Origin: Trypanosoma brucei
Lineage: Eukaryota
NCBI GenBank assembly: GCA_000002445.1
Contig: CM000208.1
Coordinates: 224,001-288,000 of the forward strand
Direction of reading: 5' to 3'
DNA: 64,000 bases
Part shown: positions 42,933 to 59,384 of the stretch, piece by piece
How the letters are laid out: every line of letters begins with the position of its first letter
How positions within the stretch are numbered: the first letter of the stretch is position 1
Notes under the pieces: model-generated
What the model saw: the letters and a program-made list of their open reading frames with translations, nothing else
What the model was told of the DNA's origin: nothing
Databases searched by the model: none
Made by a program: the position numbers and the translations under genes

Positions 42933-43400
42933 TGTAAACACAGCAGTTAGTTATTATACTAGATGTTTTATTGCAAAATTCACCCTCCCTTCTCTCCCCA
43001 CGATCCGTACATACACTTTCGTCTTTACTTCTTTCCCCTCCATTTGATGTTGCTCCTCTATCTTTGTGAGAGCGGTGGGATGAGGTTGCTTACGTTGTAA
43101 TGCAGTTTTTCTCAACCCCATGTCTGTATGACAGCAGTGCAACGAAGATATGTAAGAGGTATTTTAGAGGACAGAAACACAAACAGCAGCAGCAACGGAG
43201 GGGCTCTAGTGACCACTTGGATGCCTTTCTTCTTTTTTTCTATGTGTGGTGGTCTACCCACCGAAGGGTAGAAGGGAATGTGTATTCCCCTCTCCTCTCT
43301 CTTTTGCCATTGTCCTTATACACATTGTTGTCCCGTGTATTCTCCCCGCATTTCTTTCATCATACATGTAACATGCCATGTCGCGAGCAAGGGTTGGGGT

Positions 43401-45221
43401 ATGGCCGCCGTGGAGCCATACAGACGCTTTGTGTCGATAGAGCTTCCCTTTTGCCTTCCTGTAACGGTGGAAACCAACACCGACGGTACCCATTCCTCAT
43501 GTGCCACGGCCACGGCGGATCGCCACACGGTAGAGGCATTTGTTCCCCCGTCATTCCTTCGACCTTGTATCGACGACATCATACCGACGGCACGGGAGAA
43601 GGCGGAACGTCAGGAAGGAGGTAACGACACCGCGGGAAAGGGTGAACCGAAGGAAATGTTGGGTATTGCAACAACGACGGAATATTGCACGGGGGAAATA
43701 TTCTCAGGGTGGCGGTCGCTGGATTTTGACGCGGATCTGGAGAGTCGTTTGGAGGGAACTGCCGACGGAAACCGTAGCAAGCTGACGACTACGGCAAATG
43801 AAGAAGGGGAGGCAGAAAGAGAACGAATAAGGCGCGAGTCCTTTCCCTCCATTACCCCCCAGCTCTTGCTTCAGGGATTCTTTCGTAATGATCTCCTGGT
43901 GGAGGTGAAACGCACGCGACGGGTTAAACGATTGCGTAATGTGGAGACGGGACGTGTGGTAAAAGAAACTTACGTTGATGGTGGCACTGATCACAAGCAA
44001 ACGGGGGTAACTGTATTAGGTGTTGTGTCACGCGAAGTAGACATTGTTAAACCGGCGGATTTCTGTTTTTCCCCTTTCACGAGCGAAAATATTGAATCAT
44101 TTCCAGAACTGTGCAGTGGGAACATTTTTCCACCAGGTCACTTTATAGGCGAGAAGAGTCCGTTCGAGGTCGCTTTAGTGTATGATTCACACTCGGGGAA
44201 GAGGGACATGGACCGCCTGGATAACACTGCAACATCATTTAACTGCGATGAGGCACCACTGTGGGAGTTTGAGGGCGTTCCCACGCTGACGATGGCAGCA
44301 GGCGACCCAAACATTCCACCGCCACCGAGTCAAGCGCAGATGGATATCCTCCGCCGCCTGAACGAAGGTTTTGATGAGCAAGGCTGCATAGAGGTGCGAG
44401 CCGTGAAGGCGCTCTTGGAAGAGCGTCCGGTATGGGTGACGAAGGACCTCATAGACGCCATTTTCGAAACGGGTGTATGCCCTCGCACACACATAAATAA
44501 AAAGGCTGTGGCGTGCTTGACGTATATCATTAAAAATGGGCCGTTTAATAGGATGCGCATCCGTATGGGGTTCAACCCATATGCCAACCCCAGCTCAGCA
44601 TGCCTGCAAAGAATCGCTGTGAAGATCTGCCGTCGCTCTGAGTTAGGTACATGCCTGCGTGACATTAGTCGCGTTCCCTACATCAATGAGGTGCTGCAAG
44701 AAATACTTGACAGTAAATCCCACAAGCGAGGCTCAGAGGAGGATAGCGGTGCTTTCAAACGGCCAAGTTCGCTGCCATACCGCCCACGGGGAACACTTTT
44801 CGAGAGGCTCGCAAGGGCTATTGGGCTAGGACAACTTTATGTCGCCCTTCAGTTAATTGATGTGAGTGATGACGCCTTTCTACAAGAACTACTTTCAACC
44901 GTCTCCGCAGATGCAGAAATTCCCCTTGAAGACCGTACGTGGCGATGTGGTTGGATAGGTAGTGGGTGTTACCAGCGAGCTATCAATCACATAATTAGTA
45001 CCTTTACAACATTTATTCGAGAAGAGGTAGAACCAGTGCTGCAGAGGAGACGAAGCGGCCAAGAAAACGACCAAGTTGGGGAAAGTGCAGGTGAGCGGTC
45101 TCCGTATGCCTCCTCCACCTCCAGTGTGTCACCAGAGAGTTATGGTGATGATGATAATGAGGACTCACTCGAGAGTGTTAGTCCTGTAGACGATTTGTCC
45201 CAGCATCCAGATGACGGATGA
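43401..45221 (+). CDS. Hypothetical protein (~606 aa) with an acidic C-terminus
   Basis: The track ORF starts at the ATG at 43278, but that lies inside a C/T-rich tract typical of a 5' flank. I prefer the ATG at 43401 ('MAAVEPYRRF'). No confident domain assignment. Confidence 0.5.
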   Translation: MAAVEPYRRFVSIELPFCLPVTVETNTDGTHSSCATATADRHTVEAFVPPSFLRPCIDDIIPTAREKAERQEGGNDTAGKGEPKEMLGIATTTEYCTGEIFSGWRSLDFDADLESRLEGTADGNRSKLTTTANEEGEAERERIRRESFPSITPQLLLQGFFRNDLLVEVKRTRRVKRLRNVETGRVVKETYVDGGTDHKQTGVTVLGVVSREVDIVKPADFCFSPFTSENIESFPELCSGNIFPPGHFIGEKSPFEVALVYDSHSGKRDMDRLDNTATSFNCDEAPLWEFEGVPTLTMAAGDPNIPPPPSQAQMDILRRLNEGFDEQGCIEVRAVKALLEERPVWVTKDLIDAIFETGVCPRTHINKKAVACLTYIIKNGPFNRMRIRMGFNPYANPSSACLQRIAVKICRRSELGTCLRDISRVPYINEVLQEILDSKSHKRGSEEDSGAFKRPSSLPYRPRGTLFERLARAIGLGQLYVALQLIDVSDDAFLQELLSTVSADAEIPLEDRTWRCGWIGSGCYQRAINHIISTFTTFIREEVEPVLQRRRSGQENDQVGESAGERSPYASSTSSVSPESYGDDDNEDSLESVSPVDDLSQHPDDG

Positions 45222-45969
45222 CAATGTCAACTTATGGCATCCTCCACCTTGGTCCCCGGAGGAAAATAACTGTTTAGTTATTTTGTTTAGCTGCATTGTA
45301 CGATTGGCACGGTGTCGCCATTGGTTGGCAAAGTTGATCGGTATCGCCGCATCGTGCACTCAGCGTGCCTACCGTGTGCGGCTAAGGGGTTCTCCTCTGT
45401 GACGGTTGGGGTGGAGAGCGACCGACTTCATTACTGTTATCCATTTTGTCTGCGCAGGCTTCATTCGATGCACCCATGGAAACAGTACGGAGGGGTTAGC
45501 GAAGAGAGCAAACGCAAGATTACAGAATCTTGCCAACCCTCTCCCCAACTTGCCCTCGTGCCCACATGTGGCTGTCAGCAATAGTAGTTGGCACATTTAC
45601 CTGCATTGTTGGAGGGAAAGGAAGAGGAGGCTGTCGATATCCCGCCCTTCCCGTTTGTTTTCCCATATCTCTTGTGAACCGGCACATTGGGTCTCAAACT
45701 GGAATGTAATTTTTTCAGCTGTTCCGCAATGTTGCTGTTGTGACGATCAGTTTGCCTCACGTGCCGTCGCCCCTCATCTTCCCCCCTCCAGTTTCCGTTA
45801 ACATCCTGTTATTTTCGTGCGCGTGAGAGCACGCAAACATACCTGAAGCGAGTGCAATACAAAACGTCTACCAGCCGCTGTTTGTCTTCCCATTTCACAT
45901 TTCATACCTACTAAAACACGTATAATCACGTCTTCACTTTATGAAGTATAGAGTCGCAACGTGCCAAGC

Positions 45970-47124
45970 ATGGCAGCAGTGATGAAATTAGAAAAGTTCT
46001 TCGTTGCAACGCTTATCGTTGCCGTCACGAGGTGCTTCGCAGAGGAAGTGGACACCGTTGCTCCAGGTAAGGCACCACCACAGGACGTAGTAAATACCTT
46101 GTGTGGGGCGAAGCATTTATTAGAAGCAGTAAATAAAAAGGCGGGGACTCTTGCGAGCGAAGTAGAAAAGCATGTCACTGATGCGAAGGCTTCTCTAGAC
46201 GGAACTGTCAAAGCGTCAAAGAGCACGCAGACCTTGTACGAAAAACTGCAGAAGGATGTAATGGATGCGGGCCTTACCGCTGTTGTTGTAGAACGGATGA
46301 AGGGAATTGCCGACGCCGCTGTCGAGGTGGCGGCGAGTGCCGAGGAAGCTTATGAAAAAGTGATACGAACGAATGAAAGTGTTGGGACAGCCGCAGCGGA
46401 GATAGAAACGAGTTCGAACCACTCCGCGAACCTTATCGACAAAATACTAATGGCCACCGCGGGGGTGGAAGATAAGGAAACAGAAGAAGACTTTTGCAGT
46501 GGTGTTGAAAATAAATATGGTGATGGCCTCAAGAATGCGAGTCGGCCGCATTGTCGACTATTTGACAACTGTAAGTTGGACGATATTAATGGCAAGGCAT
46601 GGCAGCCCACGCACATGGAGCTGGTAATCACATACCATGGGATATGTTATCGTCTTGACGCGGTAGAACTGTCTATGGGAATTGCAAAGGACGCGGCTAC
46701 GAAGGCATCGCAGATGAAGACGCGTGCTGAAGAGGGAATGGCGTCAGCTTATCAAGAGTCGATTGTCGTGGCGAGGGAAATTGCCGGGGAGGCGGAGAGA
46801 AAAAGACTACTAGCAGAAAAGGAGCTGGCGGAAACAAGGGAGAAAGCGGCTGCAGATGCCAAAGCTCGGAAAGAAGCGGAGGAAGAAATGAGACGGAGGG
46901 CCGAAAGGGAAAGAGCGGAAAAAGAGGAAGCTGTCGCTAGGGCGGAGCGAATGGAAAAAAAGGGGAAAACAGTAGCCGAAGTTGTGGTGAAGGCTGAACA
47001 TGATCAAAAGGCAAAAGACGGTGCAAGTGACATCAGCAGCCGGAGAATCGGATCCCTATGGAGTCCATTGCGCGACGTTTGGTTAATACTTCCTGCCGCC
47101 TCGCTGTGTTTATGGACTCAATGA
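45970..47124 (+). CDS. Putative secreted/GPI-anchored alpha-helical surface glycoprotein (~384 aa)
   Basis: The track start is a GTG at 45961; ATGs are at 45970 and 45982. The N-terminal signal peptide is 'MAAVMKLEKFFVATLIVAVTRCFA|EE'. The mature part is Ala/Glu/Lys-rich and helical, with ~6 Cys and NxS/T sequons (NES, NHS, NAS). A charged coiled segment precedes the hydrophobic C-terminus 'GSLWSPLRDVWLILPAASLCLWTQ', which is compatible with a GPI-anchor signal. Confidence 0.55.
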   Translation: MAAVMKLEKFFVATLIVAVTRCFAEEVDTVAPGKAPPQDVVNTLCGAKHLLEAVNKKAGTLASEVEKHVTDAKASLDGTVKASKSTQTLYEKLQKDVMDAGLTAVVVERMKGIADAAVEVAASAEEAYEKVIRTNESVGTAAAEIETSSNHSANLIDKILMATAGVEDKETEEDFCSGVENKYGDGLKNASRPHCRLFDNCKLDDINGKAWQPTHMELVITYHGICYRLDAVELSMGIAKDAATKASQMKTRAEEGMASAYQESIVVAREIAGEAERKRLLAEKELAETREKAAADAKARKEAEEEMRRRAERERAEKEEAVARAERMEKKGKTVAEVVVKAEHDQKAKDGASDISSRRIGSLWSPLRDVWLILPAASLCLWTQ

Positions 47125-48365
47125 AAGAAACTTATAGGACTGTTGAAATTCACACGAACACGTCATATGATACGAACTCTACAGTCAAGCGATTTGAATT
47201 GTGCCGCACCTCTCCCGGTGCGTGCCCTCAATATTTCTATTCGTATTCACCTAGCCTTCGTTAAGGGTGAATACGGTAACGTATAATTTTTGCTTTATAA
47301 AGGGAAAATGAAGGGAACTTATTAGTGTGAATAAAGCGGGTGACGGAGGGCTCCCTCAGTGTTTATCCGATTACGATGTGAATGTTATTTGTCTTCCTCA
47401 AGTGAAGTTTGGTGTCGTGATGCAGTTGGAACATGCCATTGGTTGCGCGACATGATGTTTTGCTGCTGTTTCTTTTAAAAGGAAAAAAAACAAAGTATTG
47501 ACAACAACAATAATAATAATAATAGAGTGAATAGATACGCGATGGAAAGGAGGATGGGGGCGGTTGCTGTCATCCCACGCCTAAACACTATGCGCTGTTC
47601 GTCACCTGCATGGTTAACAACCCCGTGACTTATCTCATAACATCCCATTCCGACACAGCATTCGTTCCCGTAAGCGAAGTTTTTTTTCCCCCTTCAATGT
47701 GCTTTTGCGAGGCGATTATCCTTAAGGAAGATCCACGTATGTGTTTATGTATTTTCGTATTCATGAATTTGTGTACTTATATATTCGCACAAGTAAAATG
47801 AAGGAACAACTGTTTTTGTCTCATATTGTTTTCTTTTTTGTTTTGTTTTCAATGGGAGGACGGTTCTCTTCATTGGGGGAAACCCCGTTTGAAATTTTAA
47901 CGGGGAAGCGGTTTAGGGCCAATAAAACCGTCTAATGTTGATGAACTTTCCACACATCAAGAAATTTCGTACCACAATCAGCACCTACCTCTGTTTCTTG
48001 CGTTGCGGTTTGTAAAGTTGCTGGTGACGCAGTAAAGTGGAAATAAATAAATAAACATAAATAAAATTCTGCAGCGCGGAGGGGGAACATATGATTTATT
48101 ATGAAAATGTGTGTTCTCGAATATGAATCTCCCTTTTTATCCTTGTGTGTTTTTGCTATTTTTTCTTTTATTAAGTACCCAACACAGTTGATAGGCTGTT
48201 CGTACCGCTGCGTCCGAAGTAAAAAATTTTTTATTTTTTATTTTTCCTTTGAACAGTAATAACGATAGCAGCAGCTATAGCACCGACCATCACCACTAAT
48301 AATAATATTATTGTTGTTGTTATTGTTGCCGCCCCTTCAAATATTATCGGCATTACGTGTGAATA

Positions 48366-48848
48366 ATGAAAGCCCGTTCCTCCCGCCCAGTGACAACAAT
48401 AACGGTGACATCAGAAGAAACCATTCAAACGCACAATGCACGTGATACCCCACGGACATTTGAGTACAAAACCAAAAGGAATGAACTCATGCGAAGGTTG
48501 GAGGAAATGCGAAATGCGTTGGAAGAAGATAATAATAATAATAATAAAGGATCACGTGTGAAACTTTGTTATTATGATATTACATTTAATTGCAGGGATC
48601 CCGTCGATGTTACTGTTATGAGTGGCTTTCAGAGATTTGAGGGACTCGGGGACACATTAAGCGGACACATGAAATGCGAAGAAGATGACAGGCACAAATT
48701 TGTGGGGTTAATTAAAGAAATTATTCAATTGGATGTGAGTCACCGCGCGAGGAATATGGACAAAAGTGAAATTGCGGTAGTGAGGATTGCAGCAAACTTC
48801 AAGGAACTTAACAGCACCTTCACGAGAAGCGCGGCAACACTCCTTTGA
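48366..48848 (+). CDS. Small hypothetical protein (160 aa); last candidate gene of the plus-strand unit
   Basis: ATG at 48366. It contains an (AAT)n-encoded poly-Asn run. No recognisable domain. Confidence 0.4.
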   Translation: MKARSSRPVTTITVTSEETIQTHNARDTPRTFEYKTKRNELMRRLEEMRNALEEDNNNNNKGSRVKLCYYDITFNCRDPVDVTVMSGFQRFEGLGDTLSGHMKCEEDDRHKFVGLIKEIIQLDVSHRARNMDKSEIAVVRIAANFKELNSTFTRSAATLL

Positions 48849-51800
48849 GTACAGCTGTTGTTTGCCTGCTTGTTTATTTTGTTGTTGTTGTTTTCTTTTT
48901 TCATTTTCCACCTTCAACATTACCAACTCCAATCCTCCACCCGTGTCGTTGCCGCAACCCCTTCAGCATTCAAAATAAAAAAAAAGAAACATATATAAGC
49001 GTGCGTGTGTGTCTGAGTAATTGGATATTGTATTTTTGACATCCGTTCTATTCAAAAAAGGAACCTGACAAAACAAGCGCATACCGTTTTCCTGCATAAT
49101 TTTTTTTTCTATTTATGTACTCATACATGCGCTTACTAACACTAAGCGAGATGAAAGATATCATATCATGTGATGCGGTGCAAGTTTTGGCATTTTTTTT
49201 TTAATTTTTTACTTGCACTTCAATAACAGGACGATAAACGGAAGTGAGGTACGTCAAGACAAGCCAAGTGTGTCGAAGAAATTTATCAGCAGAAGTCGTT
49301 TCGGCATGCATTTACGCATATTTTTATGTTTATGCATATAATATAAAAGCATATTCATATACTCATTGGTTTATTATGAGCGTGGTGTAATGGTGAATGT
49401 CATTCAAACATTTACACTATACACTTCTTTTACGTTTCATTGGTGCACTAACATTAAAAGTGGGAGTGCCCAGATGAAAGATATTTGGCTGAATATTTAT
49501 ACCGCCACGTAGCGCATAAATAAACAGACATATATTTTTATAAATACAAATTTATCGACGCAATGCAACCGGAGCACCACGGTGGCCCCTACGAGTTATA
49601 TGCCCACTTCTCCTCAAAGAAAAAATATTTTATCTTTTTTTTCATTTTATTTTCCTTTTTACACCTGTGCTGGGAAACTAAACGTATGTCCCGTAGTTTT
49701 TTTTTTATGTACGTGTAGGGGAGGACGGTGGGGAAATGGTCGACGTTGGACGCTTCGAATGGGAGCTCAACCATAACACTATTTTTAGCGTGTGCTTTTT
49801 TTTCTTTTTTAGTTCCTTCTACTGTTCGCGGTGCAAAACAAAAGAACAAATCGCGTACCGTCATATCGCTCGTTTTTTTATTATTATTTACTATTTCCCC
49901 CCCCCCCTCCCTTTGTGGCGTTTCGTTGTCCCCAATTGCTTTTTCTTTCCTTTCCTTCATGTTTGTCCATTTACTGACTGTCAGGATCGAAGAACAATTG
50001 AATAATGGTAATAACAAAGGGCAACTGCACACTTCGCCGTCTAATATGAGGAACGGGATTTTTGAATTGTGATGCCTTCAAGTTCCCTCAAGTCCCAAAA
50101 AATATATATATAGTGTTTCTTTTTGTCCCCTTTACTTCAGCGGTCATGCAAAATCAGCTCCTTCATTTGTTACGGTGCTGAAATTTACTTGAAGTTGTCG
50201 TATTTTAGGGAACCCATGCATGAACACTAACAACAATATTAGTGAAACAATTGCTTAACATATGTGTCTCTGCTGTGATTTCCTTCTTGTGAATTACCTA
50301 ACGGTGTTCAAAAAGTCATTTCGTTGATGCAATTTGTTTCCCCTCCCTTGTTTTGTGGTGACGTACTTTTGACACCGCTGTTGTTTTGCTGGGTCTGATG
50401 GAAGGTTCGGGGACGCAGAAACGGAAAAAGCGAAGGGGAGACATACACTTCTTTTATAATAATAATAATGAGGCTGACTTCCCTATCCTTTTGGCCTCCA
50501 TTAAATTCCTTTTCTTTCCGCCTTGAGCTGCTAGAGCTTTTCCCCAAACTGTATAAACTGCAGAGGGCCACTTAGAAGCCGTGCCGTAGCGAGAGGTTCC
50601 GAATTGACAAAAAGAAGAGCGCGTCAGTCCTCCCTCACAGGTTAACCGCTTTCTAAATAGTTGGAAATTACACAAATATCAACACAGTCCCGCTCACTTA
50701 TTCGCAAGCCGACTTTCGCGTCACAACATTGCGGCCCTCATAAGAAAGCCCTCGCTGTCATCCATTGGAAACCCGTCTCGGTTGACTTCAATAATGTATG
50801 AAACAGGAAGAGTAGCCACCGGGGGAAAGAGGCAGAGAGAGGAACGCCGACGCGTTCCGCTATTCTGGGTGTCAGTTCCATCATGCGTTATCATGGTCTC
50901 GCTTCGGTGCGACTTCTTGAACATTCCAGTAGGGGGCTGTGACAGCGACTTGGCTTTACGGGATTGTTGTTCTGCAGCGCTTCTGGGTTCATTTATTCCT
51001 TCAGCTTTCGCACTTGGGGCCATTCGAGGAAATCGGCGAAGGGTTTCTGGCACCTCAGTCTCATTTAAGTGTGGTTTTCTCCCCCCCCCCCCCAATTTCC
51101 TTGCCGAGTGCCCATCGCAGGTGCCCTGTCAACCCAGCATTCCCGAGAAGGTACTTGGGAAACACCGAATAAGTGCGGCTCCCCGCCCCTCTTTTCTTTC
51201 GTTGCTTCGGTGTGGCCCCAGTGTTTTCTGTCGCCCAAAACCACATTCACCATGTCTGCCCACGTTACTGCGAAAGCAGGGCCCTTAAGAGGCAGCCCTC
51301 AATGCATAGGATGCCGTTCAACTCTTTTCCCAACCTCTCCATTGATGCGATGACGCGTGGTGCGGTGCCTTGTACGAATCCCTGTCACCTCGGCGGCGAT
51401 CCCGCGCTCCCCGACGGCAAGTTTCTTCGCCAAAAAAGCGCCGTTCTCCCAGGGAGGAAAATACCCAAACATTCTTTCACGAGCGGATGTACCCTAAACC
51501 GATCCCCACTTACAGGCGAAAAGCCCGTTGTTTACCATTCCCCCCTTTGTTCTCTCCCTCTCTTTGCCCCATTTACTCCACGCACTCCCCACACGTTTCA
51601 AAAACTTCGCGATCCCCGTGCACGACGTCCAATTTCTCTTTCCCTCCTCATTTCCTCTAACCCTCACAATCTTCAACCTCACCAGCTCCACCATATCCTT
51701 AAACCCCCTCGCCTTCTCTGTTGCGTCTTTGGCTTTTGCTTGAACGAAGGCATACACCAATTTCAATCTCCCTGATATATTACAAAGCCCCCACAGGGCC

Positions 51801-54258
51801 CACTTATCTTGAGTTCACCATTATCCGCAGACGTAAATCTACGAAAGGCAAACAGGACGCAACCAAAGTAATGACTTCTTTTGCGGGCATTCTATGTGTA
51901 GTTTCGGAGGTGAAGGGGAAAGCACACCGAAGTGAAAACTTAGCACCGCAGAAGCACTCCCCGACTAGGCTTAAATACGTTAACATGAGAATATAAGATA
52001 ACATAAGTGAAGCAACGAAAAGAACATAAAAGACTAATATACCAGAAAACACCGCCAACCCCAGCGTAGAGCCTCATCCCGAAAAAAACGAGAGTAAAGA
52101 TCGTTATTTCTGATATCGGGGTAAAGATGGCAACTCGCACACGGAGGATCAGCTTAAAGTACATCTTCTAATTGCGCACCGCTGAAAAGACAAATAATTA
52201 CTTGCGTTAAGTGTCAACTAGATCCCCTCGACCCACAGAGGAAATATCCACCGAAACCAAAGACTACATTTCACTGTGAACAACGAAACACGGGCGGTGC
52301 CTCGGATGGCAAAAAGGTTGTCCCTTTTGAGGATGGCTCATTAAAACATGGTGGGCTTTTGGCGCCCTCAAGGGAGACATCCATAACAATTAGGGGAAGC
52401 TGACTACCAACATTCTACATTTATCAAAGCCTACAAACGACCCCCTCCAACATGGGTGCCGGCAGCTCGTCTGCGTCTATTCGTGGTGGAGCGTCCGTTG
52501 TTGAGGAATCGAAAACAGAAGGAACTCCAGAAAGCATGGTAACTCCGCTTGGGCTTTCGGATGAGGAGCAGCCCAAGGTCACATCAACCTACTTCCCCAC
52601 CCTCAAATATAAAACGGCTCTAATGGAGTCATGGAAAAGCCGGAACCGTTGCGCAGAAGAAGGATGTTAAGTTGATAACTGGTGAATGTATGGAACAGGT
52701 ATTTTCAGTTGCCAACAGAAGAGCCCTAATACGATAAAGATCAGTTAAAGGAGAGTTCCCCCCGTCTTATGTGATCTGCTTTAAACACTCTGAGATAACA
52801 ATATGGAAAGCTTTGAGGAACTCTGGAAGCAGTTGCAGTTGGATCCCTTGCGATGCAACACTTGGGAATGACAGGGAGATTTGTACGTTGAAAGCCTTAG
52901 AGGCTATCGTATTCGTGGAGGGTGGTCGTTTGACCGACATTTGGGAGGCGGAGCGCGACAGAGTACCGTGCCACACGTGAGAAAGTTGTTGAAGAGAGGA
53001 GAATATCTCAATGATACCATTGCACATTTTATTTGCCAAATTGCGGCTCAAGCAGTTACTAGGAGGAAGGGGTGCGGAGCCGCGGCGCCCGGAAGAATCA
53101 TGAGGCGCATAAACATCAAGGGGGTGGACCTCATTGTACTAATGAAGAAGGTGTCGAATGAAACAGTTGTGCGGGAATGAGGATATGGGGCTTCAAAACC
53201 ATTCATCATCAGGGGGGGGGAATGTTGGAGGCTGCTAAAGTTGGTATTCGTGCCGTATCTGTTAACCACTTGGAATCTGGTTGTTAGTGGTTACCGCCTT
53301 CCAAAGAGGCAGCCGATGCATACAAGGGCGGGCACATATGCACAGCCCTCTCGCAAAGATACACTCAACACATTCACTCACACATACTTAAACGGACCCG
53401 CAGAATGTCAAGTGCTTTACTCTTTTTGAGCAACCGACTCCGAAAACTTGCCCCTTCGGATAAAAAAAGTGAGTGTTTGTGATGAATAAATACGGAAACA
53501 CTTCCTATCATATGTGGGACACTGAGGTACACGAAACATACGGTGACGGAAAAGGGGGATTCAAAACCCTCAATCATGACACGACTTTACTAAATCCTTC
53601 TATTTCTATCTGTTTCAAGCACTTGGTCATAACTGGAACACTCAGTTCCTCCTTCTGTTGCAGCAATAAAAGAATAGACTTTTGTATACTCCTCTCAGTC
53701 AATCCCTTGTCTCTTTCAATATGCATCAAAACTGTCTCATGAAGGAGTTCCATAACCTCGTCCCGCAATTTGTCAGCGCGTTGAATAAACACGCTTGCAA
53801 TTATATCTTGTAGTTCTCGCAGTTCCGGAAGCCACGGCGTGGTGGAGTGGGCACAACCACAAATAACTAAAAAACTAAGACCCCCTCTAGTGAGATTCAA
53901 CAAAGACAAAAGGTAAAACACGCAAAAAGTCAGTAGTCTACACGGAAAAAAGGAATATTTCAAAACATCCACCAACAAATTACCGCCCCCTCCCTCCCCC
54001 CCCAAAAAAAAGGGGGATCGCAAAAAGAAACTACATTCAAGGACACCAAAAGCACTCGCCGTTGCAAAACATTACTATAGTCACCAGCATGCGCCAGCTG
54101 GGATCCACTACTTTTCCGATTGAAAAAAAAATACTACGAGATCAAAAATAGAAAGCATACTAATCACTGAAGGGAACGACCCTGTCTTATACCACAGGTA
54201 CAGAAGGAAATATATACTCGTCTTCAATGCAATACACATAAATTCGAACAGACTCCGG
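48849..54258. other. Convergent strand-switch region (probable RNA pol II termination zone) between the plus- and minus-strand units. About 5.4 kb with no convincing CDS.
   Basis: Coding strand polarity flips from + (genes to 48848) to - (CBP1 stop at 54259). Only short, compositionally odd ORFs lie in between. There are AT-rich blocks (49050-49560) and homopolymer runs: C12 at 51083-51094, C11 at ~49896, G9 at ~53212, C-rich at 53984-54003. No tRNA cloverleaf was found by eye. Confidence 0.6.
52452..52670 (+). CDS. Speculative 72-aa ORF with an N-myristoylation consensus (MGAGSS...)
   Basis: ATG in a 'ccaacATGG' context. The translation is 'MGAGSSSASIRGGASVVEESKTEGTPESMVTPLGLSDEEQPKVTSTYFPTLKYKTALMESWKSRNRCAEEGC' (Gly2, Ser6). 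It is an isolated short ORF inside the strand-switch region, so it could be chance. Confidence 0.2.
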   Translation: MGAGSSSASIRGGASVVEESKTEGTPESMVTPLGLSDEEQPKVTSTYFPTLKYKTALMESWKSRNRCAEEGC

Positions 54259-55653
54259 TTACGAGAGTGGTTCGTTCCTCATGAATTTCTCAATTATAGT
54301 GGATGCCGCAGCAGGTTGATCCATCGGCACCATGTGACCCGCACCGTACACCTGCACAAAACTGAAGTGCATTGACGATGTGTTTGATGATACGCTACGT
54401 ACAAGACCCGCAGCACTACCATCAATAGATGAGAATGGGGTACCAGGGGCCTTCACAAACTCTTCACTTCCAGACCACTGAAGTGCAAGTGTCCACTCCT
54501 TATTTCCAATCCAGTTGCAGATAAAGTCCATATCACCGGCATAAATCATTACTCGAACTCCATCTTCGAGGAGTCCACTAATTGTGTAGTTAAAGTTCTT
54601 AAACCAGTCAACGGCAAACATCAGGTTCACCTCCATGTTACAAGCTTGCCAAGTCATTGGATCTACACCCAGAGACCTCTGAACATCCTCACGGTTCATA
54701 AAGTTGTCAACTCCCGTTGTGTTGTAACATAATGGCCCATCACATGTTTTGCGGATATCATAAACGTTCAGGCCTGTAGCTGAAAACAGAGCTACCATCG
54801 GACCACAAGTCACACGGGAAAGCTTGCACGACGAGTCCGCGGATGATGAATTATCAGCGTCACAAGCAGAAATAGTACTTTGACAAGCGGGCACCATCGC
54901 CGACATCATCACATGAACAAAGGAAGATACACACGGACTTCCAAGAACTTCCTTGCACCAGTCCCATGCAAGTCTGGGATATGACGCATATTGTGTATAC
55001 GGATCTGTTAAACCGTTTCCTACAGCCAATCCTGCAAGAGGAATGTATATGCCTTCACCCTTTTTATTGCCTTGGTTAATGCGGTAAGCTGTAGCCGGAG
55101 CAAAGTGGCCACCGTAGCTTTCCCCAACAACAAAGAAGTCGTTTTCACGCAGGTCCTCGTGCTCACCAAAGAAGGCCTGTAGAAAGTTGTACATGTCCTC
55201 CGACACCTCCGCTTCATTCTTATCATAATCCGCTTTATCCGCATACGAAAAGCCCACACCGGCAGGTTGATCGATATATATTACATACGCGTGGTTGTTC
55301 CACGAGTACGTATTGTTGTATATGTCACCAGTCGTTTCGTTCATGAGGCAAGGTCCATTCTCTGCAAGTAGCGCAAACATGGAACTACATCCAGGACCGC
55401 CTGTCATCCACAGGAGCACTGGGGCATTGGGATTGCCATCACGTGGTCCAAATGCCCAGTAGAAGTAATGTTTGTCACTCTGCTCTCCAGGAATATCAAA
55501 ATATCCGCTCCATTGATTAACGCCGGGGTCACAAGGCTCCCAACCAGAGCCCGTCGTGCGAAGCGTCGGACGGCGGATAGCCTGAAGGGCGCTTGCACTC
55601 TGCAATAAGAGTAGCAACGAGATAAGAAAAAGCGACGTGTGGCACAGCATCAT
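54259..55653 (-). CDS. CBP1: Serine carboxypeptidase (S10 family; CBP1 / serine carboxypeptidase III), array copy 1
   Basis: 464 aa with an ATG start. Signal peptide 'MMLCHTSLFLISLLLLLQSASA'. Catalytic serine motif 'VVGESYGGHFAPA'. 'WMTGGPGCSS' is conserved. Confidence 0.9.
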   Translation of the reverse strand: MMLCHTSLFLISLLLLLQSASALQAIRRPTLRTTGSGWEPCDPGVNQWSGYFDIPGEQSDKHYFYWAFGPRDGNPNAPVLLWMTGGPGCSSMFALLAENGPCLMNETTGDIYNNTYSWNNHAYVIYIDQPAGVGFSYADKADYDKNEAEVSEDMYNFLQAFFGEHEDLRENDFFVVGESYGGHFAPATAYRINQGNKKGEGIYIPLAGLAVGNGLTDPYTQYASYPRLAWDWCKEVLGSPCVSSFVHVMMSAMVPACQSTISACDADNSSSADSSCKLSRVTCGPMVALFSATGLNVYDIRKTCDGPLCYNTTGVDNFMNREDVQRSLGVDPMTWQACNMEVNLMFAVDWFKNFNYTISGLLEDGVRVMIYAGDMDFICNWIGNKEWTLALQWSGSEEFVKAPGTPFSSIDGSAAGLVRSVSSNTSSMHFSFVQVYGAGHMVPMDQPAAASTIIEKFMRNEPLS

Positions 55654-55974
55654 TTGTATGGGAACTTACTTCTACACAGATGATCGAAAGAAACAAATCA
55701 CAATCGGAGAGGAACGGGAGGCAACGGAATGCCGAATTTGGAAACCATGAGAGAGCACCCAACATAGTCACGAAGTTGCAGTATGCTGACCAACGTCCAA
55801 AAAAACATCCGTACAAAGCATGTCGGAAGCAAAGCATTGAGAAACAGCAAAATATTTAAAGTCTTTAAAAGAATAAAAAACACTCGCAGCCACATACCGT
55901 CATAAGTCAGGGCTTTTTAAAAGCAGTAAAGGAATCAATTCAATGCAATACACATAAATTCGAACAGACTCCGG

Positions 55975-57369
55975 TTACGAGAGTGGTTCGTTCCTCATGA
56001 ATTTCTCAATTATAGTGGATGCCGCAGCAGGTTGATCCATCGGCACCATGTGACCCGCACGGTACACCTGCACAAAACTGAAGTGCATTGACGATGTGTT
56101 TGATGATACACTACGTACAAGACCCGCAGCACTACCATCAATAGATGAGAATGGGGTATCAGGGGCCTTCACAAACTCTTCACTTCCAGACCACTGAAGT
56201 GCAAGTGTCCACTCCTTATTTCCAATCCAGTTGCAGATAAAGTCCATATCACCGGCATAAATCATTACTCGAACTCCATCTTCGAGGAGTCCACTAATTG
56301 TGTAGTTAAAGTTCTTAAACCAGTCAATGTCAAACATCAGGTTCACCTCCATGTTACAAGCTTGCCAAGTCATTGGATCTACACCCAGAGACCTCTGAAC
56401 ATCCTCACGGTTCATAAAGTTGTCAATTCCCGTTGTGTTGTAACATAATGGCCCATCACATGTTTTGCGGATATCATAAACGTTTATACCTGTAAGCAAA
56501 AAATCAGATACAAAGCCGCTACAAGCAGCACCAGCCATCTCACAGTAAGAATCCGCGGATGATGAATTATCAGCGTCACAAGCAGAAATATTACTCTGAC
56601 AAGCGGGCACCATACTGTTCATGGAGTCATATGTCTCGCGGGATATACATGAATAGCCGAGAACTTCCTTGCACCAGTCCCATGCAAGTCTGGGATATGA
56701 CGCATATTGTGTATACGGATCTGTTAAACCGTTTCCTACAGCCAATCCTGCAAGAGGAATGTATATGCCTTCACCCTTTTTATTGCCTTGGTTAATGCGG
56801 TAAGCTGTAGCCGGAGCAAAGTGGCCACCGTAGCTTTCCCCAACAACAAAGAAGTCGTTTTCACGCAGGTCCTCGTGCTCACCAAAGAAGGCCTGTAGAA
56901 AGTTGTACATGTCCTCCGATACCTCCGCTTCATTCTTATCATAATCCGCTTTATCCGCATACGAAAAGCCCACACCGGCAGGTTGATCGATATATATTAC
57001 ATACGCGTGGTTGTTCCACGAGTACGTATTGTTGTATATGTCACCAGTCGTTTCGTTCATAAGGCAAGGTCCATTCTCTGCAAGTAGCGCAAACATGGAA
57101 CTACATCCAGGACCACCTGTCATCCACAGGAGCACTGGGGCATTGGGATTGCCATCACGTGGTCCAAATGCCCAGTAGAAGTAATGTTTGTCACTCTGCT
57201 CTCCAGGAATATCAAAATATCCGCTCCATTGATTAACGCCGGGGTCACAAGGCTCCCAACCAGAGCCCGTCGTGCGAAGCGTCGGACGGCGGATAGCCTG
57301 AAGGGCGCTTGCACTCTGCAATAAGAGTAGCAACGAGATAAGAAAAAGCGACGTGTGGCACAGCATCAT
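55975..57369 (-). CDS. CBP1: Serine carboxypeptidase (S10; CBP1), array copy 2
   Basis: 464 aa. The N-terminal ~235 aa and C-terminal ~100 aa are identical to copy 1; the central segment is divergent. The 'GESYGG' motif is present. Confidence 0.9.
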   Translation of the reverse strand: MMLCHTSLFLISLLLLLQSASALQAIRRPTLRTTGSGWEPCDPGVNQWSGYFDIPGEQSDKHYFYWAFGPRDGNPNAPVLLWMTGGPGCSSMFALLAENGPCLMNETTGDIYNNTYSWNNHAYVIYIDQPAGVGFSYADKADYDKNEAEVSEDMYNFLQAFFGEHEDLRENDFFVVGESYGGHFAPATAYRINQGNKKGEGIYIPLAGLAVGNGLTDPYTQYASYPRLAWDWCKEVLGYSCISRETYDSMNSMVPACQSNISACDADNSSSADSYCEMAGAACSGFVSDFLLTGINVYDIRKTCDGPLCYNTTGIDNFMNREDVQRSLGVDPMTWQACNMEVNLMFDIDWFKNFNYTISGLLEDGVRVMIYAGDMDFICNWIGNKEWTLALQWSGSEEFVKAPDTPFSSIDGSAAGLVRSVSSNTSSMHFSFVQVYRAGHMVPMDQPAAASTIIEKFMRNEPLS

Positions 57370-57983
57370 TTGTATGGGAACTTACTTCTACACAGATGAT
57401 CGAAAGAAACAAATCACAATCGGAGAGGAACGGGAGGCAACGGAATGCCGAATTTGGAAACCATGAGAGAGCACCCAACATAGTCACGAAGTTGCAGTAT
57501 GCTGACCAAACAAGGAATTATCTATTATTTGAGGAGGAGGAGAAACATTAAACGCCAGCGAGCTACGTTAATGCGGCCATTGAAATTGAGAAACTCATCA
57601 TTTCTGGCAGCAGCAGAAGTGAGGTACCAGAAAGTAGAACATTCCCCCTCTATTGTGCAGTGGCATATGCATTCAATTGTAACACAGGCATTGGACCCGC
57701 AAATATGCCACTTCATAGAAGTGCATAGCAAGTCTATACGGCAGTAAAGACACAATGTAAAACATAAAGTCCAGAACCGGTAAGGGCATCCAAGAGACAC
57801 AAGGTCCACAAAAACATCCGTACAAAGCATGTCGGAAGCAAATCATTGAGAAACAGCAAAATATTTAAAGTCTTTAAAAGAATAAAAAACACTCGCAGCC
57901 ACATACCGTCATAAGTCAGGGCTTTTTAAAAGCAGTAAAGGAATCAATTCAATGCAATACACATAAATTCGAACGGACTCCGG

Positions 57984-59384
57984 TTACGAGAGTGGTTCGT
58001 TCCTCATGAATTTCTCAATTATAGTGGATGCCGCAGCAGGTTGATCCATCGGCACCATGTGACCCGCACGGTACACCTGCACAAAACTGAAGTGCATTGA
58101 CGATGTGTTTGATGATACACTACGTACAAGACCCGCAGCACTACCATCAATAGATGAGAATGGGGTATCAGGGGCCTTCACAAACTCTTCACTTCCAGAC
58201 CACTGAAGTGCAAGTGTCCACTCCTTATTTCCAATCCAGTTGCAGATAAAGTCCATATCACCGGCATAAATCATTACTCGAACTCCATCTTCGAGGAGTC
58301 CACTAATTGTGTAGTTAAAGTTCTTAGACCAGTCAATGTTGAACATTTTGCTAGCATCAAAAACGCAAGATTTCCAAACAGTAGGGCGGACACCAAGTGA
58401 CTTCTGAACATTCTCACGGTTCATAAAAGCGGGTATGGCATCAAATTTGTAGCAAAGTGTTGCGTTGCATTTTCTTCGGATATCATAAGTACTTATTTTT
58501 GTCAAAGTGAAAAGATTAGTCACAGGATCGCATGTCACACGAGACAACTTACACAAATACTGCGATGATGAAGCGCCAGCGTTGCACGCGTTGATCACTT
58601 TCTGGCAAGCGGGCACCATACTGTTCATGGAGTCATATGTCTCGCGGGATACACACGGACTTCCAAGAACTTCCTTGCACCAGTCCCATGCAAGTCTGGG
58701 ATATGACGCATATTGTGTATACGGATCTGTTAAACCGTTTCCTACAGCCAATCCTGCAAGAGGAATGTATATGCCTTCACCCTTTTTATTGCCTTGGTTA
58801 ATGCGGTAAGCTGTAGCCGGAGCAAAGTGGCCACCGTAGCTTTCCCCAACAACAAAGAAGTCGTTTTCACGCAGGTCCTCGTGCTCACCAAAGAAGGCCT
58901 GTAGAAAGTTGTACATGTCCTCCGATACCTCCGCTTCATTCTTATCATAATCCGCTTTATCCGCATACGAAAAGCCCACACCGGCAGGTTGATCGATATA
59001 TATTACATACGCGTGGTTGTTCCACGAGTACGTATTGTTGTATATGTCACCAGTCGTTTCGTTCATGAGGCAAGGTCCATTCTCTGCAAGTAGCGCAAAC
59101 ATGGAACTACATCCAGGACCACCTGTCATCCACAGGAGCACTGGGGCATTGGGATTGCCATCACGTGGTCCAAATGCCCAGTAGAAGTAATGTTTGTCAC
59201 TCTGCTCTCCAGGAATATCAAAATATCCGCTCCATTGATTAACGCCGGGGTCACAAGGCTCCCAACCAGAGCCCGTCGTGCGAAGCGCTAGAGATAAACT
59301 ACGATAGACAGTATTTGCTAAAACTACGACCAGGATGCAAGCAGCCAGTAACGATAGCATTACCGGATACGAAATGAGCCGCAT
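57984..59384 (-). CDS. CBP1: Serine carboxypeptidase (S10; CBP1), array copy 3, with a divergent signal peptide and central region
   Basis: 466 aa with an ATG start. The N-terminus 'MRLISYPVMLSLLAACILVVVLA' differs from copies 1 and 2. From 'RTTGSGWEPCDPG' onward it is identical to them up to the central variable block. Confidence 0.9.
   Translation of the reverse strand: MRLISYPVMLSLLAACILVVVLANTVYRSLSLALRTTGSGWEPCDPGVNQWSGYFDIPGEQSDKHYFYWAFGPRDGNPNAPVLLWMTGGPGCSSMFALLAENGPCLMNETTGDIYNNTYSWNNHAYVIYIDQPAGVGFSYADKADYDKNEAEVSEDMYNFLQAFFGEHEDLRENDFFVVGESYGGHFAPATAYRINQGNKKGEGIYIPLAGLAVGNGLTDPYTQYASYPRLAWDWCKEVLGSPCVSRETYDSMNSMVPACQKVINACNAGASSSQYLCKLSRVTCDPVTNLFTLTKISTYDIRRKCNATLCYKFDAIPAFMNRENVQKSLGVRPTVWKSCVFDASKMFNIDWSKNFNYTISGLLEDGVRVMIYAGDMDFICNWIGNKEWTLALQWSGSEEFVKAPDTPFSSIDGSAAGLVRSVSSNTSSMHFSFVQVYRAGHMVPMDQPAAASTIIEKFMRNEPLS

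What the first reader, a model, noticed from the sequence alone, without database searches (positions are those of the whole stretch)
48849..54258. Unusually large (5.4 kb) gene-free convergent strand-switch region with homopolymer C/G runs and no tRNA
Coding polarity switches here. In T. brucei, convergent junctions are pol II termination sites, marked by base J and histone variants H3.V/H4.V and frequently occupied by tRNA/snRNA genes. I could not find a tRNA cloverleaf or A/B-box pair. The interval holds a GC-richer block (50600-51700) with C11-12 runs and a proline-rich pseudo-ORF, flanked by AT-rich DNA. It is large enough to hide a degenerate retroelement or pseudogene relic, an unannotated ncRNA, or an antisense-transcription or siRNA-generating zone of overlap.
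Basis: partly seen in the sequence, partly recalled or inferred. Interest (0 to 1): 0.5.

Follow-up and report, generated by a model that had tools for sequence, protein, structure and literature searches.

The report
Termination zone holding an inversion-repeat arm
This is an ordinary, gene-less stretch where two opposing gene clusters of Trypanosoma brucei chromosome 10 stop being transcribed, but it also holds one arm of a 1.1-kb inverted repeat whose recombination has flipped a whole 52-54 kb gene cluster between strains, so the "convergent junction" sits here only in the reference strain.

Summary
The window is T. b. brucei TREU927 chromosome 10, 224,001-288,000. The interval 48849-54258 is a real convergent strand-switch region between Tb10.70.7140 and the carboxypeptidase gene CBP1A (Tb927.10.1030). 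It has no tRNA, no Rfam family, no Pfam domain in any frame and no unusually stable RNA fold.

It is not unusually large: 72% of 72 published T. brucei convergent-junction intervals are at least this long. It is not formally gene-free either. Two hypothetical ORFs are annotated inside it, but both are transcript-less and unconstrained.

It is already catalogued as CTU35, a weak DCL2-dependent siRNA locus. CBP1A's mRNA ends 221 nt into it.

In T. b. gambiense the two arms flank a roughly 54 kb block of about 20-25 genes. That block lies in the opposite orientation in gambiense and T. b. equiperdum IVM-t1. Homology with those genomes breaks exactly at the arm's inner edge.

This is the 55-kb inversion reported in 2010. 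I found no description of the repeat arms. The block corresponds to a published transcription unit with its own internal start site.

Verdict: known locus, ordinary function, modest new structural detail.

The parts
48366..48848 (+). Tb10.70.7140 (160 aa, T. brucei-specific), the last gene of the + strand transcription unit
   Evidence: The exact protein equals EAN77530 / XP_822358. Kolev Table S14 lists it as the last ORF of the + unit. It is expressed at about 7.5 RNAs per cell (Table S6).
48849..52266 (.). Outer unique flank (U1). It has an AT-rich part (48849-50500) and a GC-rich, C-rich part (50600-51800). The + strand is pyrimidine-rich up to about 51800 and purine-rich after that.
   Evidence: The flank is colinear at 98.8-99.6% with T. 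equiperdum OVI, T. b. equiperdum IVM-t1 and T. b. gambiense. It has no repeat elsewhere in the window.
50794..51288 (+). Annotated hypothetical ORF Tb10.70.7120. It is probably not a gene.
   Evidence: Its coordinates, 274794-275288, appear in Kolev 2010 Table S2, 'ORFs not producing a detectable transcript'. It has no Pfam domain.
51302..51775 (+). It is probably not a gene.
   Evidence: An exact look-up gives EAN77532, 'T. brucei spp.-specific protein'. It has no detectable transcript. Seven of 8 inter-strain substitutions fall at codon positions 1 or 2, and gambiense carries a 213-bp tandem duplication inside it.
49897..49907 (+). C11 homopolymer; its length varies between strains
51081..51093 (+). 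C13 homopolymer; its length varies between strains
52267..53382 (+). Proximal arm of a 1.1-kb inverted repeat that flanks the invertible 52-54 kb block. It has sharp edges and contains a G9 run at 53212-53220.
   Evidence: In gambiense the same sequence occurs at L003 14127-15237 (+) and at L005 12267-13382 (-). The two gambiense arms differ by 2 mismatches, while each differs from the TREU927 arm by 19-21. The T. equiperdum OVI short-read contig ends 86 bp into the arm.
52452..52670 (+). 72-aa ORF (MGAGSSS...) inside the repeat arm. It is not a constrained gene.
   Evidence: All 4 substitutions between strains are non-synonymous, and they remove the myristoylation-like motif. The only credible hit among 1.84 billion representatives is a 96%-identical 72-aa ORF from an unnamed Logan read-run assembly.
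53382..53383 (.). Inversion breakpoint at the inner edge of the repeat arm. Homology with gambiense and IVM-t1 chromosome 10 stops here.
53383..54258 (-). Inner flank (U3), which travels with the CBP array. In gambiense it lies reversed at the distal junction.
   Evidence: Window 52267-58427 aligns in reverse to L005 13382-7224 at 98.6%.
54038..54258 (-). 3'UTR of CBP1A (221 nt), with the major poly(A) site at 54038
   Evidence: Kolev 2010 Table S13 gives Tb10.70.7100 a PAS at 278038 and a UTR of 221 nt. This also fixes the window offset at +224,000.
54259..59384 (-). Tandem serine carboxypeptidase genes CBP1A, B and C (Tb927.10.1030-1050), the last genes of the - strand unit
   Evidence: Pfam Peptidase_S10, E about 1e-108. 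The exact proteins are EAN77533-5. Gene names come from PMC7710103.

Best explanation
**What the interval is.** It is the termination zone where two converging RNA polymerase II polycistronic units of T. b. brucei TREU927 chromosome 10 meet. The + unit ends with Tb10.70.7140. The - unit ends with CBP1A, whose mRNA is polyadenylated 221 nt into the interval. The interval holds no functional gene or known RNA. Its ORFs are unconstrained, and in published procyclic RNA-seq they have no transcript. Residual read-through from both sides yields low levels of DCL2-dependent siRNAs.

**Its structure.** It has three parts:
- an outer unique flank (48849-52266);
- one arm of a 1.1-kb inverted repeat (52267-53382);
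- an inner flank (53383-54258) that belongs to the CBP side.

**The inversion.** The second arm lies about 52 kb further on in TREU927 (inferred, outside the window) and about 54 kb further on in gambiense (observed). Homologous recombination between the arms has inverted the whole block between them. That block runs from an AAA-ATPase gene to the CBP array. I infer that it equals a published transcription unit with its own internal start site.

**The consequence.** In TREU927 the block is read on the - strand and converges here. In T. b. gambiense DAL972 and T. b. equiperdum IVM-t1 it is read on the + strand. There this same DNA sits in a head-to-tail gap, and the convergent junction lies at the other arm.

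**Shown versus inferred.**
- Shown: the arms, the breakpoint, the two orientations, and the absence of a gene or RNA.
- Taken from published data: the siRNAs, the poly(A) site and the unit boundaries.
- Inferred: the position of the second arm in TREU927, the recombination mechanism, the equation of the block with that unit, and chromatin marks.
For: **Identity and position**
- Exact protein look-ups place the window in TREU927.
- Two independent literature coordinates fix the offset at +224,000.

**Convergent junction without a gene or RNA**
- ORF map. No tRNA. No Rfam family. No Pfam domain in six frames.
- No excess RNA structure.
- The annotated ORFs lack transcripts and show non-coding substitution patterns.

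**Transcription**
- Kolev Table S14 ends the + unit at Tb10.70.7140 and the - unit at Tb10.70.7100, and types the latter unit's start as 'Internal'.
- The CBP1A poly(A) site is at window 54038.
- CTU35 small RNAs come from both strands and depend on DCL2.

**Inverted repeat and inversion**
- Colinearity with gambiense and IVM-t1 stops at 53382.
- Window 52267-58427 aligns in reverse to the gambiense distal junction.
- The 1.1-kb segment is present in both orientations in gambiense, with sharp shared edges.
- In gambiense the CBP genes are + strand and are followed by a 3.9-kb convergent gap and then - strand genes, including the tRNA_edit gene.
- That gene is Tb927.10.1250, which is 22 gene numbers away from CBP1A in TREU927.
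- Jackson 2010 report a 55-kb inversion at 275-330 kb with gene order conserved.
- The arms are homogenised within a genome: 2 differences between arms, against 19-21 between strains.
Against: - The second arm in TREU927 lies outside the window and was not seen. The TREU927 chromosome could not be fetched.
- Equating Tb10.70.6870 with the AAA-ATPase gene and Tb10.70.6830 with the 342-aa gene rests on gene order and numbering, not on a direct look-up.
- A 1.1-kb repeat pair could also cause a segment to be mis-oriented in an assembly. The TREU927 orientation is supported only by that assembly and by its acceptance in Jackson 2010.
- Chromatin marks of termination (base J, H3.V, H4.V) were not examined.
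- The siRNA counts are for an interval that also covers the CBP genes, and they come from strain YTat1.1, whose orientation at this locus is unknown.
- The ancestral orientation could not be determined. In T. vivax and two other Trypanosoma species, CBP is followed by co-directional, unrelated genes.
Confidence: 0.8

Rival explanations
1. The interval hides one or more real protein-coding genes: Tb10.70.7120, Tb10.70.7110, or the 72-aa myristoylation-like ORF in the repeat arm.
For: - Two of the ORFs are annotated in TREU927, T. equiperdum OVI and gambiense.
- The Tb10.70.7110 ORF stays open in gambiense despite a 213-bp (71-codon) duplication.
- The 72-aa ORF starts MGAGSSS and stays open in all four copies.
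Against: - Neither annotated ORF has a detectable transcript (Kolev Table S2).
- Seven of 8 substitutions in Tb10.70.7110 fall at codon positions 1 or 2.
- All 4 substitutions in the 72-aa ORF are non-synonymous, and they abolish the motif.
- There is no Pfam domain.
- There are no relatives outside the T. brucei group and no tblastx match in outgroup loci.
Confidence: 0.06
2. The inversion is an assembly artefact: the 1.1-kb repeat pair led one assembly to orient the block wrongly, and all strains really share one orientation.
For: Repeat-flanked segments are classic sources of mis-orientation. The T. equiperdum OVI assembly breaks at the repeat. The TREU927 distal junction was not inspected here.
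Against: - Two independent assemblies, gambiense and IVM-t1, agree with each other.
- The TREU927 sequence is contiguous across arm and inner flank, and carries its own strain-specific variants.
- Jackson 2010 singled this inversion out as an example, while noting that many indels were hard to confirm because they coincided with sequence gaps.
- From my own knowledge, not tested here: the clone inserts and long reads behind these assemblies exceed 1.1 kb.
Confidence: 0.08
3. The interval contains a degenerate retroelement (ingi, RIME, SLACS, DIRE) or an RHS pseudogene, and this caused the rearrangement.
For: Transposable elements are a stated cause of rearrangements between TREU927 and gambiense (Jackson 2010). 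Synteny breaks in trypanosomatids often coincide with such elements (from my own knowledge).
Against: - No reverse-transcriptase, endonuclease or RHS Pfam domain appears in any frame at E<=1.
- The breakpoints coincide with the edges of a plain 1.1-kb repeat present in exactly inverted copies.
- U1 is assembled as a single, unbroken stretch in the T. equiperdum OVI short-read assembly.
Confidence: 0.03
4. The interval encodes an unannotated structured non-coding RNA.
For: It is 5.4 kb of unassigned DNA with a GC-rich core. Trypanosome termination sites often carry pol III genes.
Against: - No tRNA.
- No Rfam family, even at E<=1.
- Folding energies are no better than shuffled controls (z +0.36 to +1.49).
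- Kolev 2010 list no novel transcript here.
- Divergence between strains is at neutral-looking levels of 1.2-1.9%.
Confidence: 0.03

Closest known systems
Convergent strand-switch regions / convergent transcription units of T. brucei (Siegel 2009; Tschudi 2012 CTU1-50; Reynolds 2016 cSSRs)
   Same: Two pol II units converge here. The size is ordinary. Low-level DCL2-dependent siRNAs come from both strands. The junction is itself listed as CTU35.
   Different: It has no tRNA or snRNA gene. Its position on the chromosome is strain-dependent, because one of the two converging units is invertible.
The 55-kb segmental inversion on chromosome 10 (275-330 kb) between T. b. brucei TREU927 and T. b. 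gambiense DAL972 (Jackson et al. 2010)
   Same: It is the same event. The proximal breakpoint is window 53382/53383, which is chromosome 10 position 277,382/277,383. Gene order inside is conserved.
   Different: The paper, as far as its searchable text shows, does not describe three things: the 1.1-kb inverted-repeat arms at the breakpoints, the coincidence of the block with a transcription unit, or the relocation of the convergent junction.
Long inverted repeats of T. brucei that generate siRNAs (Tschudi 2012, IR1-IR7)
   Same: The arms are of similar size (422 bp to 10 kb there, 1.1 kb here). The two arms within a genome are nearly identical.
   Different: Those pairs span at most about 11 kb in total. 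Here the arms are 52-54 kb apart. This pair is not in their Table 3.
Repeat-mediated genome rearrangement in Leishmania (Ubeda et al. 2014) and inverted-repeat-mediated inversions in general
   Same: Non-allelic homologous recombination between dispersed repeats is the inferred mechanism.
   Different: In Leishmania the documented outcome is extrachromosomal amplification. Here it is a stable in-place inversion of a chromosomal block fixed in different strains.

Membership tests
Trypanosomatid convergent strand-switch region (pol II termination site) | Flanking protein-coding genes converge on opposite strands | tested here: met
   The + ORFs run up to 48848 and the - ORFs start at 54259. Kolev Table S14 ends both units here.
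Trypanosomatid convergent strand-switch region (pol II termination site) | Enrichment of base J, H3.V and H4.V | not testable with these tools
   No ChIP or J-IP tracks are available. The Reynolds 2016 S2 table, built on the Lister 427 assembly, lists no chromosome 10 interval below 615 kb.
Trypanosomatid convergent strand-switch region (pol II termination site) | Small RNAs from both strands, indicating overlapping transcription | tested here: met
   This comes from published data only. CTU35 (270,700-281,300) gave 380 top-strand and 457 bottom-strand reads, and dcl2-/- cells gave 7% of wild type.
tRNA/snRNA-associated termination site | A pol III gene (tRNA, snRNA, 5S) inside the junction | tested here: not met
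   ARAGORN found 0 genes. Rfam found none.
Inverted-repeat-mediated chromosomal inversion | Two highly similar arms in opposite orientation flanking the inverted block | tested here: met
   This is seen in gambiense: L003 14127-15237 (+) and L005 12267-13382 (-), with 2 mismatches between them. In TREU927 only the proximal arm is inside the window.
Inverted-repeat-mediated chromosomal inversion | Breakpoints coincide with arm edges; outer flanks are kept and inner flanks exchanged | tested here: met
   The outer flank U1 is colinear in all genomes. After the arm, TREU927 continues with the CBP-side flank, whereas gambiense and IVM-t1 continue with the AAA-side flank.
Inverted-repeat-mediated chromosomal inversion | Both orientations exist in real DNA, not only in assemblies | not testable with these tools
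   This needs junction PCR or long reads. Two assemblies agree on one orientation, and one assembly supports the other.
Retroelement (ingi/RIME/SLACS/DIRE) or RHS relic | Reverse transcriptase, endonuclease or RHS protein domain remnants | tested here: not met
   A six-frame Pfam scan at E<=1 gave only two chance-level hits, Ac76 and GAPT.
Retroelement (ingi/RIME/SLACS/DIRE) or RHS relic | Nucleotide similarity to element consensus sequences | not testable with these tools
   No trypanosome repeat library or whole-genome BLAST was available.
Protein-coding gene | Processed transcript, purifying selection, homologues | tested here: not met
   No transcript. Substitutions are non-synonymous or at codon positions 1 and 2. 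There are no homologues outside the T. brucei group.
siRNA-generating long inverted repeat (Tschudi IR class) | Arms close enough to lie in one fold-back transcript (total span about 11 kb or less in the published set) | tested here: not met
   The arms are about 54 kb apart in gambiense. The pair is absent from Tschudi Table 3.

The most novel reading that the evidence does not exclude
The 1.1-kb arms form a recurrent flip-flop switch around a self-contained transcription unit that has its own internal start site and about 20-25 genes, including the drug-activating CBP array.

The unit can be appended, head-to-tail, to either of two converging neighbours. Each flip moves the termination and siRNA zone about 52-54 kb between the two arms.

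The arms are kept nearly identical by gene conversion. The two orientations may segregate within T. brucei populations, where heterozygotes would suppress crossing-over across the block.
Probability: 0.3. Interest if true: 0.5.

Novelty: new member of a known kind. Interest (0 to 1): 0.3.

Why it matters
**Practical.** The reference strain's map of transcription units, termination sites and siRNA loci at chromosome 10, 273-332 kb, does not hold for at least two other T. brucei-group genomes. Data from other strains mapped onto TREU927 here, such as ChIP-seq, nascent RNA or small RNA, can be misread.

**Conceptual.** It is a clean natural example that a whole polycistronic unit can be turned round without breaking the rule that genes are co-directional with their unit. 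It also shows that a convergent junction is defined by what meets there rather than by its own sequence. The outer 3.4 kb of this 'termination zone' sits in a head-to-tail gap in other strains.

**Limits.** The locus also carries the carboxypeptidase array whose loss gives resistance to benzoxaborole prodrugs. Otherwise the interval itself is ordinary. It has no hidden gene, RNA or element.

Tried and rejected
**Chimeric protein query.** I joined 23 SSR ORF translations with X spacers into one 2,765-aa query for the search for homologous proteins. It returned nothing. An identical 157-aa protein (P0006) is in that database, so this negative is invalid and I do not use it.

**DNA references with stop codons.** I reran the scan with stops replaced by X.

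**Exact look-ups to fetch TREU927 chromosome 10.** These failed for CBP1A and for the 72-aa ORF. The distal TREU927 junction therefore could not be read.

**Polarising the inversion with outgroups.**
- In T. vivax and in assemblies GCA_002087225.1 and GCA_000691245.1 (from memory, T. theileri and T. grayi), CBP is followed by co-directional genes.
- Those genes are unrelated to either T. brucei neighbour.
- The T. rangeli contig ends at CBP.

**Repeats within the interval.** There are no long direct, inverted or tandem repeats, only low-complexity T-, A- and AAT-rich matches.

**The 72-aa ORF as a small myristoylated protein.** I considered this and rejected it on substitution pattern. Three weak hits to long repeat proteins (E 2e-6 to 4e-5) are multi-copy repeat matches. 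I judge them spurious.

**Structured RNA.** Rejected on folding z-scores.

**Literature.** Searches for a description of the repeat arms found none.

Full report
**Where the window comes from**

Exact protein look-ups identify the window as T. b. brucei TREU927 chromosome 10.
- The three 464-466 aa Peptidase_S10 genes on the minus strand are EAN77533-5.
- The 160-aa gene ending at 48848 is EAN77530 (Tb10.70.7140).
- The ORF at 51302-51775 is EAN77532 (Tb10.70.7110).
- The carboxypeptidases are TbCBP1A-C, Tb927.10.1030-1050 (PMC7710103).

Two independent published coordinates fix the offset at +224,000.
- Tb10.70.7110 lies at 275302-275775 (Kolev 2010 Table S2).
- The CBP1A poly(A) site lies at 278038, with a 221-nt 3'UTR (Table S13). 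This corresponds to window 54038, exactly 221 nt from the stop codon.

The finding therefore spans chromosome 10, 272,849-278,258.

**Checking the observation**

Confirmed:
- The polarity switch and the 5,410-bp ORF-poor gap are real.
- There is no tRNA and no Rfam family.
C/G runs are about 4 times denser than in other non-coding DNA of the window, but this rests on 4 runs against 3.

Not confirmed:
- The gap is large only against the co-directional gaps of this window (0.25-2.3 kb).
- Against 72 tabulated T. brucei convergent junctions (Reynolds 2016, S2 Table) it is below the median of 7.26 kb. Some 72% of those intervals are at least as long.

**Is anything hidden in it?**

Nothing was found by any of the following tests.
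- Six-frame translations gave no Pfam domain at E<=1 beyond two chance-level hits. This argues against a reverse-transcriptase, endonuclease or RHS relic.
- There are no internal repeats of note.
- Folding energies of the GC block and of the repeat arm are no better than shuffled controls.
- There is no nucleotide or translated similarity to the corresponding loci of T. vivax or three other Trypanosoma species.

The TREU927 annotation does place two hypothetical ORFs inside: Tb10.70.7120 (window 50794-51288) and Tb10.70.7110.
- Kolev 2010 list both among ORFs with no detectable transcript.
- In Tb10.70.7110, 7 of 8 inter-strain substitutions fall at codon positions 1 or 2.
- Gambiense carries a 213-bp tandem duplication inside that ORF.

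A tempting 72-aa ORF beginning MGAGSSS (52452-52670) also fails.
- All four substitutions between strains are non-synonymous, and they destroy the motif.
- Its only credible relative among 1.84 billion representative proteins is a 96%-identical 72-aa ORF from an unnamed Logan read-run assembly.

I conclude that the interval has no functional gene.

**What is known about its transcription**

- Kolev 2010 Table S14 ends the + unit at Tb10.70.7140 and the - unit at Tb10.70.7100, which is CBP1A.
- CBP1A's mRNA occupies only 221 nt of the interval. 'Long UTRs meeting' is therefore not the explanation on that side.
- No novel transcript is listed between 256.5 and 331.2 kb.
- Tschudi 2012 list this junction as CTU35 (270,700-281,300). 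It gave 837 AGO1-bound small RNAs, 380 from the top strand and 457 from the bottom. In dcl2-/- cells the count was 7% of wild type. It is a weak member of that class, where others reach 33,000 reads.
- The + strand is pyrimidine-rich up to about 51,800 and purine-rich beyond. This places the compositional strand switch there.

**The unexpected part: an inverted-repeat arm and an inversion breakpoint**

Chromosome 10 of T. b. equiperdum IVM-t1 (L002) and of T. b. gambiense DAL972 (L003) is colinear with the window from 38362 to 53382. Homology then stops abruptly. In those genomes the next gene is a + strand AAA/Vps4_C ATPase, not the carboxypeptidases.

The gambiense carboxypeptidases lie about 50 kb further on, on the + strand and in reverse order. 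They are followed by a 3.9-kb convergent gap and then - strand genes.

Aligning the window to that distal locus shows that 52267-58427 matches it in reverse. The 1.1-kb segment 52267-53382 is therefore present twice in gambiense, in opposite orientations, with sharp shared edges.
- One copy follows the outer flank U1.
- The other lies 874 bp beyond the last CBP gene.

The outer flank is conserved and the inner flanks are exchanged. This is the signature of recombination between inverted repeats.

The two gambiense arms differ by 2 mismatches plus G-run length. Each differs from the TREU927 arm by 19-21 mismatches. This points to homogenisation within a genome.

The short-read T. equiperdum OVI contig ends 86 bp into the arm, as expected for a repeat.

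**Relation to the literature**

- Jackson 2010 report a 55-kb inversion at 275-330 kb on chromosome 10, with gene order conserved. This is the same event. I found no mention of the repeat arms there or elsewhere.
- The pair is not among the seven long inverted repeats of Tschudi 2012.
- Kolev's Table S14 types the - unit Tb10.70.6870 to 7100 as starting at an 'Internal' site, downstream of a unit ending at Tb10.70.6830.
- By gene order I infer that Tb10.70.6870 is the AAA-ATPase gene and Tb10.70.6830 is the 342-aa gene beyond the distal arm. On that inference the invertible block is a complete transcription unit with its own start site.
- An independent check: the tRNA_edit gene that is third after the junction in gambiense is Tb927.10.1250. 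That is 22 gene numbers from CBP1A in TREU927.
- Neither gambiense junction carries a tRNA or an Rfam family.

**Mechanism, with shown and inferred steps**

Shown:
- the junction, and the lack of a gene or RNA in it;
- the repeat arm, the breakpoint, and the opposite orientation in two other genomes.

From published data:
- the poly(A) site, the unit boundaries and the siRNAs.

Inferred:
- the second arm in TREU927 lies at about 329.4-330.6 kb;
- the inversion arose by homologous recombination between the arms;
- the block carries its own start site, so either orientation is transcriptionally viable;
- the termination and siRNA zone moves with the orientation.

The ancestral state is undetermined, because the region downstream of CBP is not syntenic in the outgroups.

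**Verdict**

The finding as written describes a real but ordinary and already catalogued convergent junction. Its claims of unusual size and of hidden elements are not supported. Its siRNA suggestion is supported by published data. The added value is the repeat arm and the recognition that the junction is strain-specific because a whole unit is invertible. This is a modest, checkable addition to a known inversion.

Noticed in passing
window 43278-45221 (+): A 647-aa protein with a clear Pfam Tau95 match (TFIIIC subunit HTH domain, E=1.4e-21). It is a TFIIIC-like factor in a trypanosome, sitting two genes upstream of a tRNA-less termination site.
   Followed up: no
L003 13255-13500 (T. b. gambiense), equivalent to window ~51396-51637: Gambiense carries a 213-bp tandem duplication inside the Tb10.70.7110 ORF. 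The annotated ORF grows from 157 to 228 aa. TREU927, T. equiperdum OVI and IVM-t1 lack the duplication.
   Followed up: partly
window 54259-59384 versus L005 4258-11392: CBP copy number differs: three genes in TREU927 and four in gambiense DAL972, one extra unit of about 2.0 kb. The tandem-repeat homology ends 36 nt beyond the stop codon of the terminal copy (window 54223).
   Followed up: partly
L003 16250-17500 (gambiense; same in L002): A block of 57-61% GC lies in the flank between the proximal repeat arm and the AAA-ATPase gene, followed by a strongly T-rich stretch. This is where the 'Internal' transcription start site of Kolev 2010 would lie, if the block equals that unit.
   Followed up: no
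window 52267-53382 versus flanks: TREU927 and gambiense differ by 1.7-1.9% in the repeat arm, about 1.2% in the outer flank and about 1.4% in the inner flank. Over the whole 13-15 kb aligned region, including genes, they differ by about 0.7%. T. equiperdum OVI is almost identical to TREU927 in the outer flank, while IVM-t1 groups with gambiense.
   Followed up: partly
window 37662-42932 (+): A 1,756-aa protein with TPR repeats near its N-terminus and IQ calmodulin-binding motifs near its C-terminus.
   Followed up: no
L006, L007, L010 (outgroup loci): The gene order RPL9 (Ribosomal_L6), RPS23, kinase, TCP-1, CBP is conserved across T. vivax and two other Trypanosoma species. The genes after CBP are different in each species and are co-directional. 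The 3' side of CBP is therefore a recurrent synteny break in the genus.
   Followed up: partly
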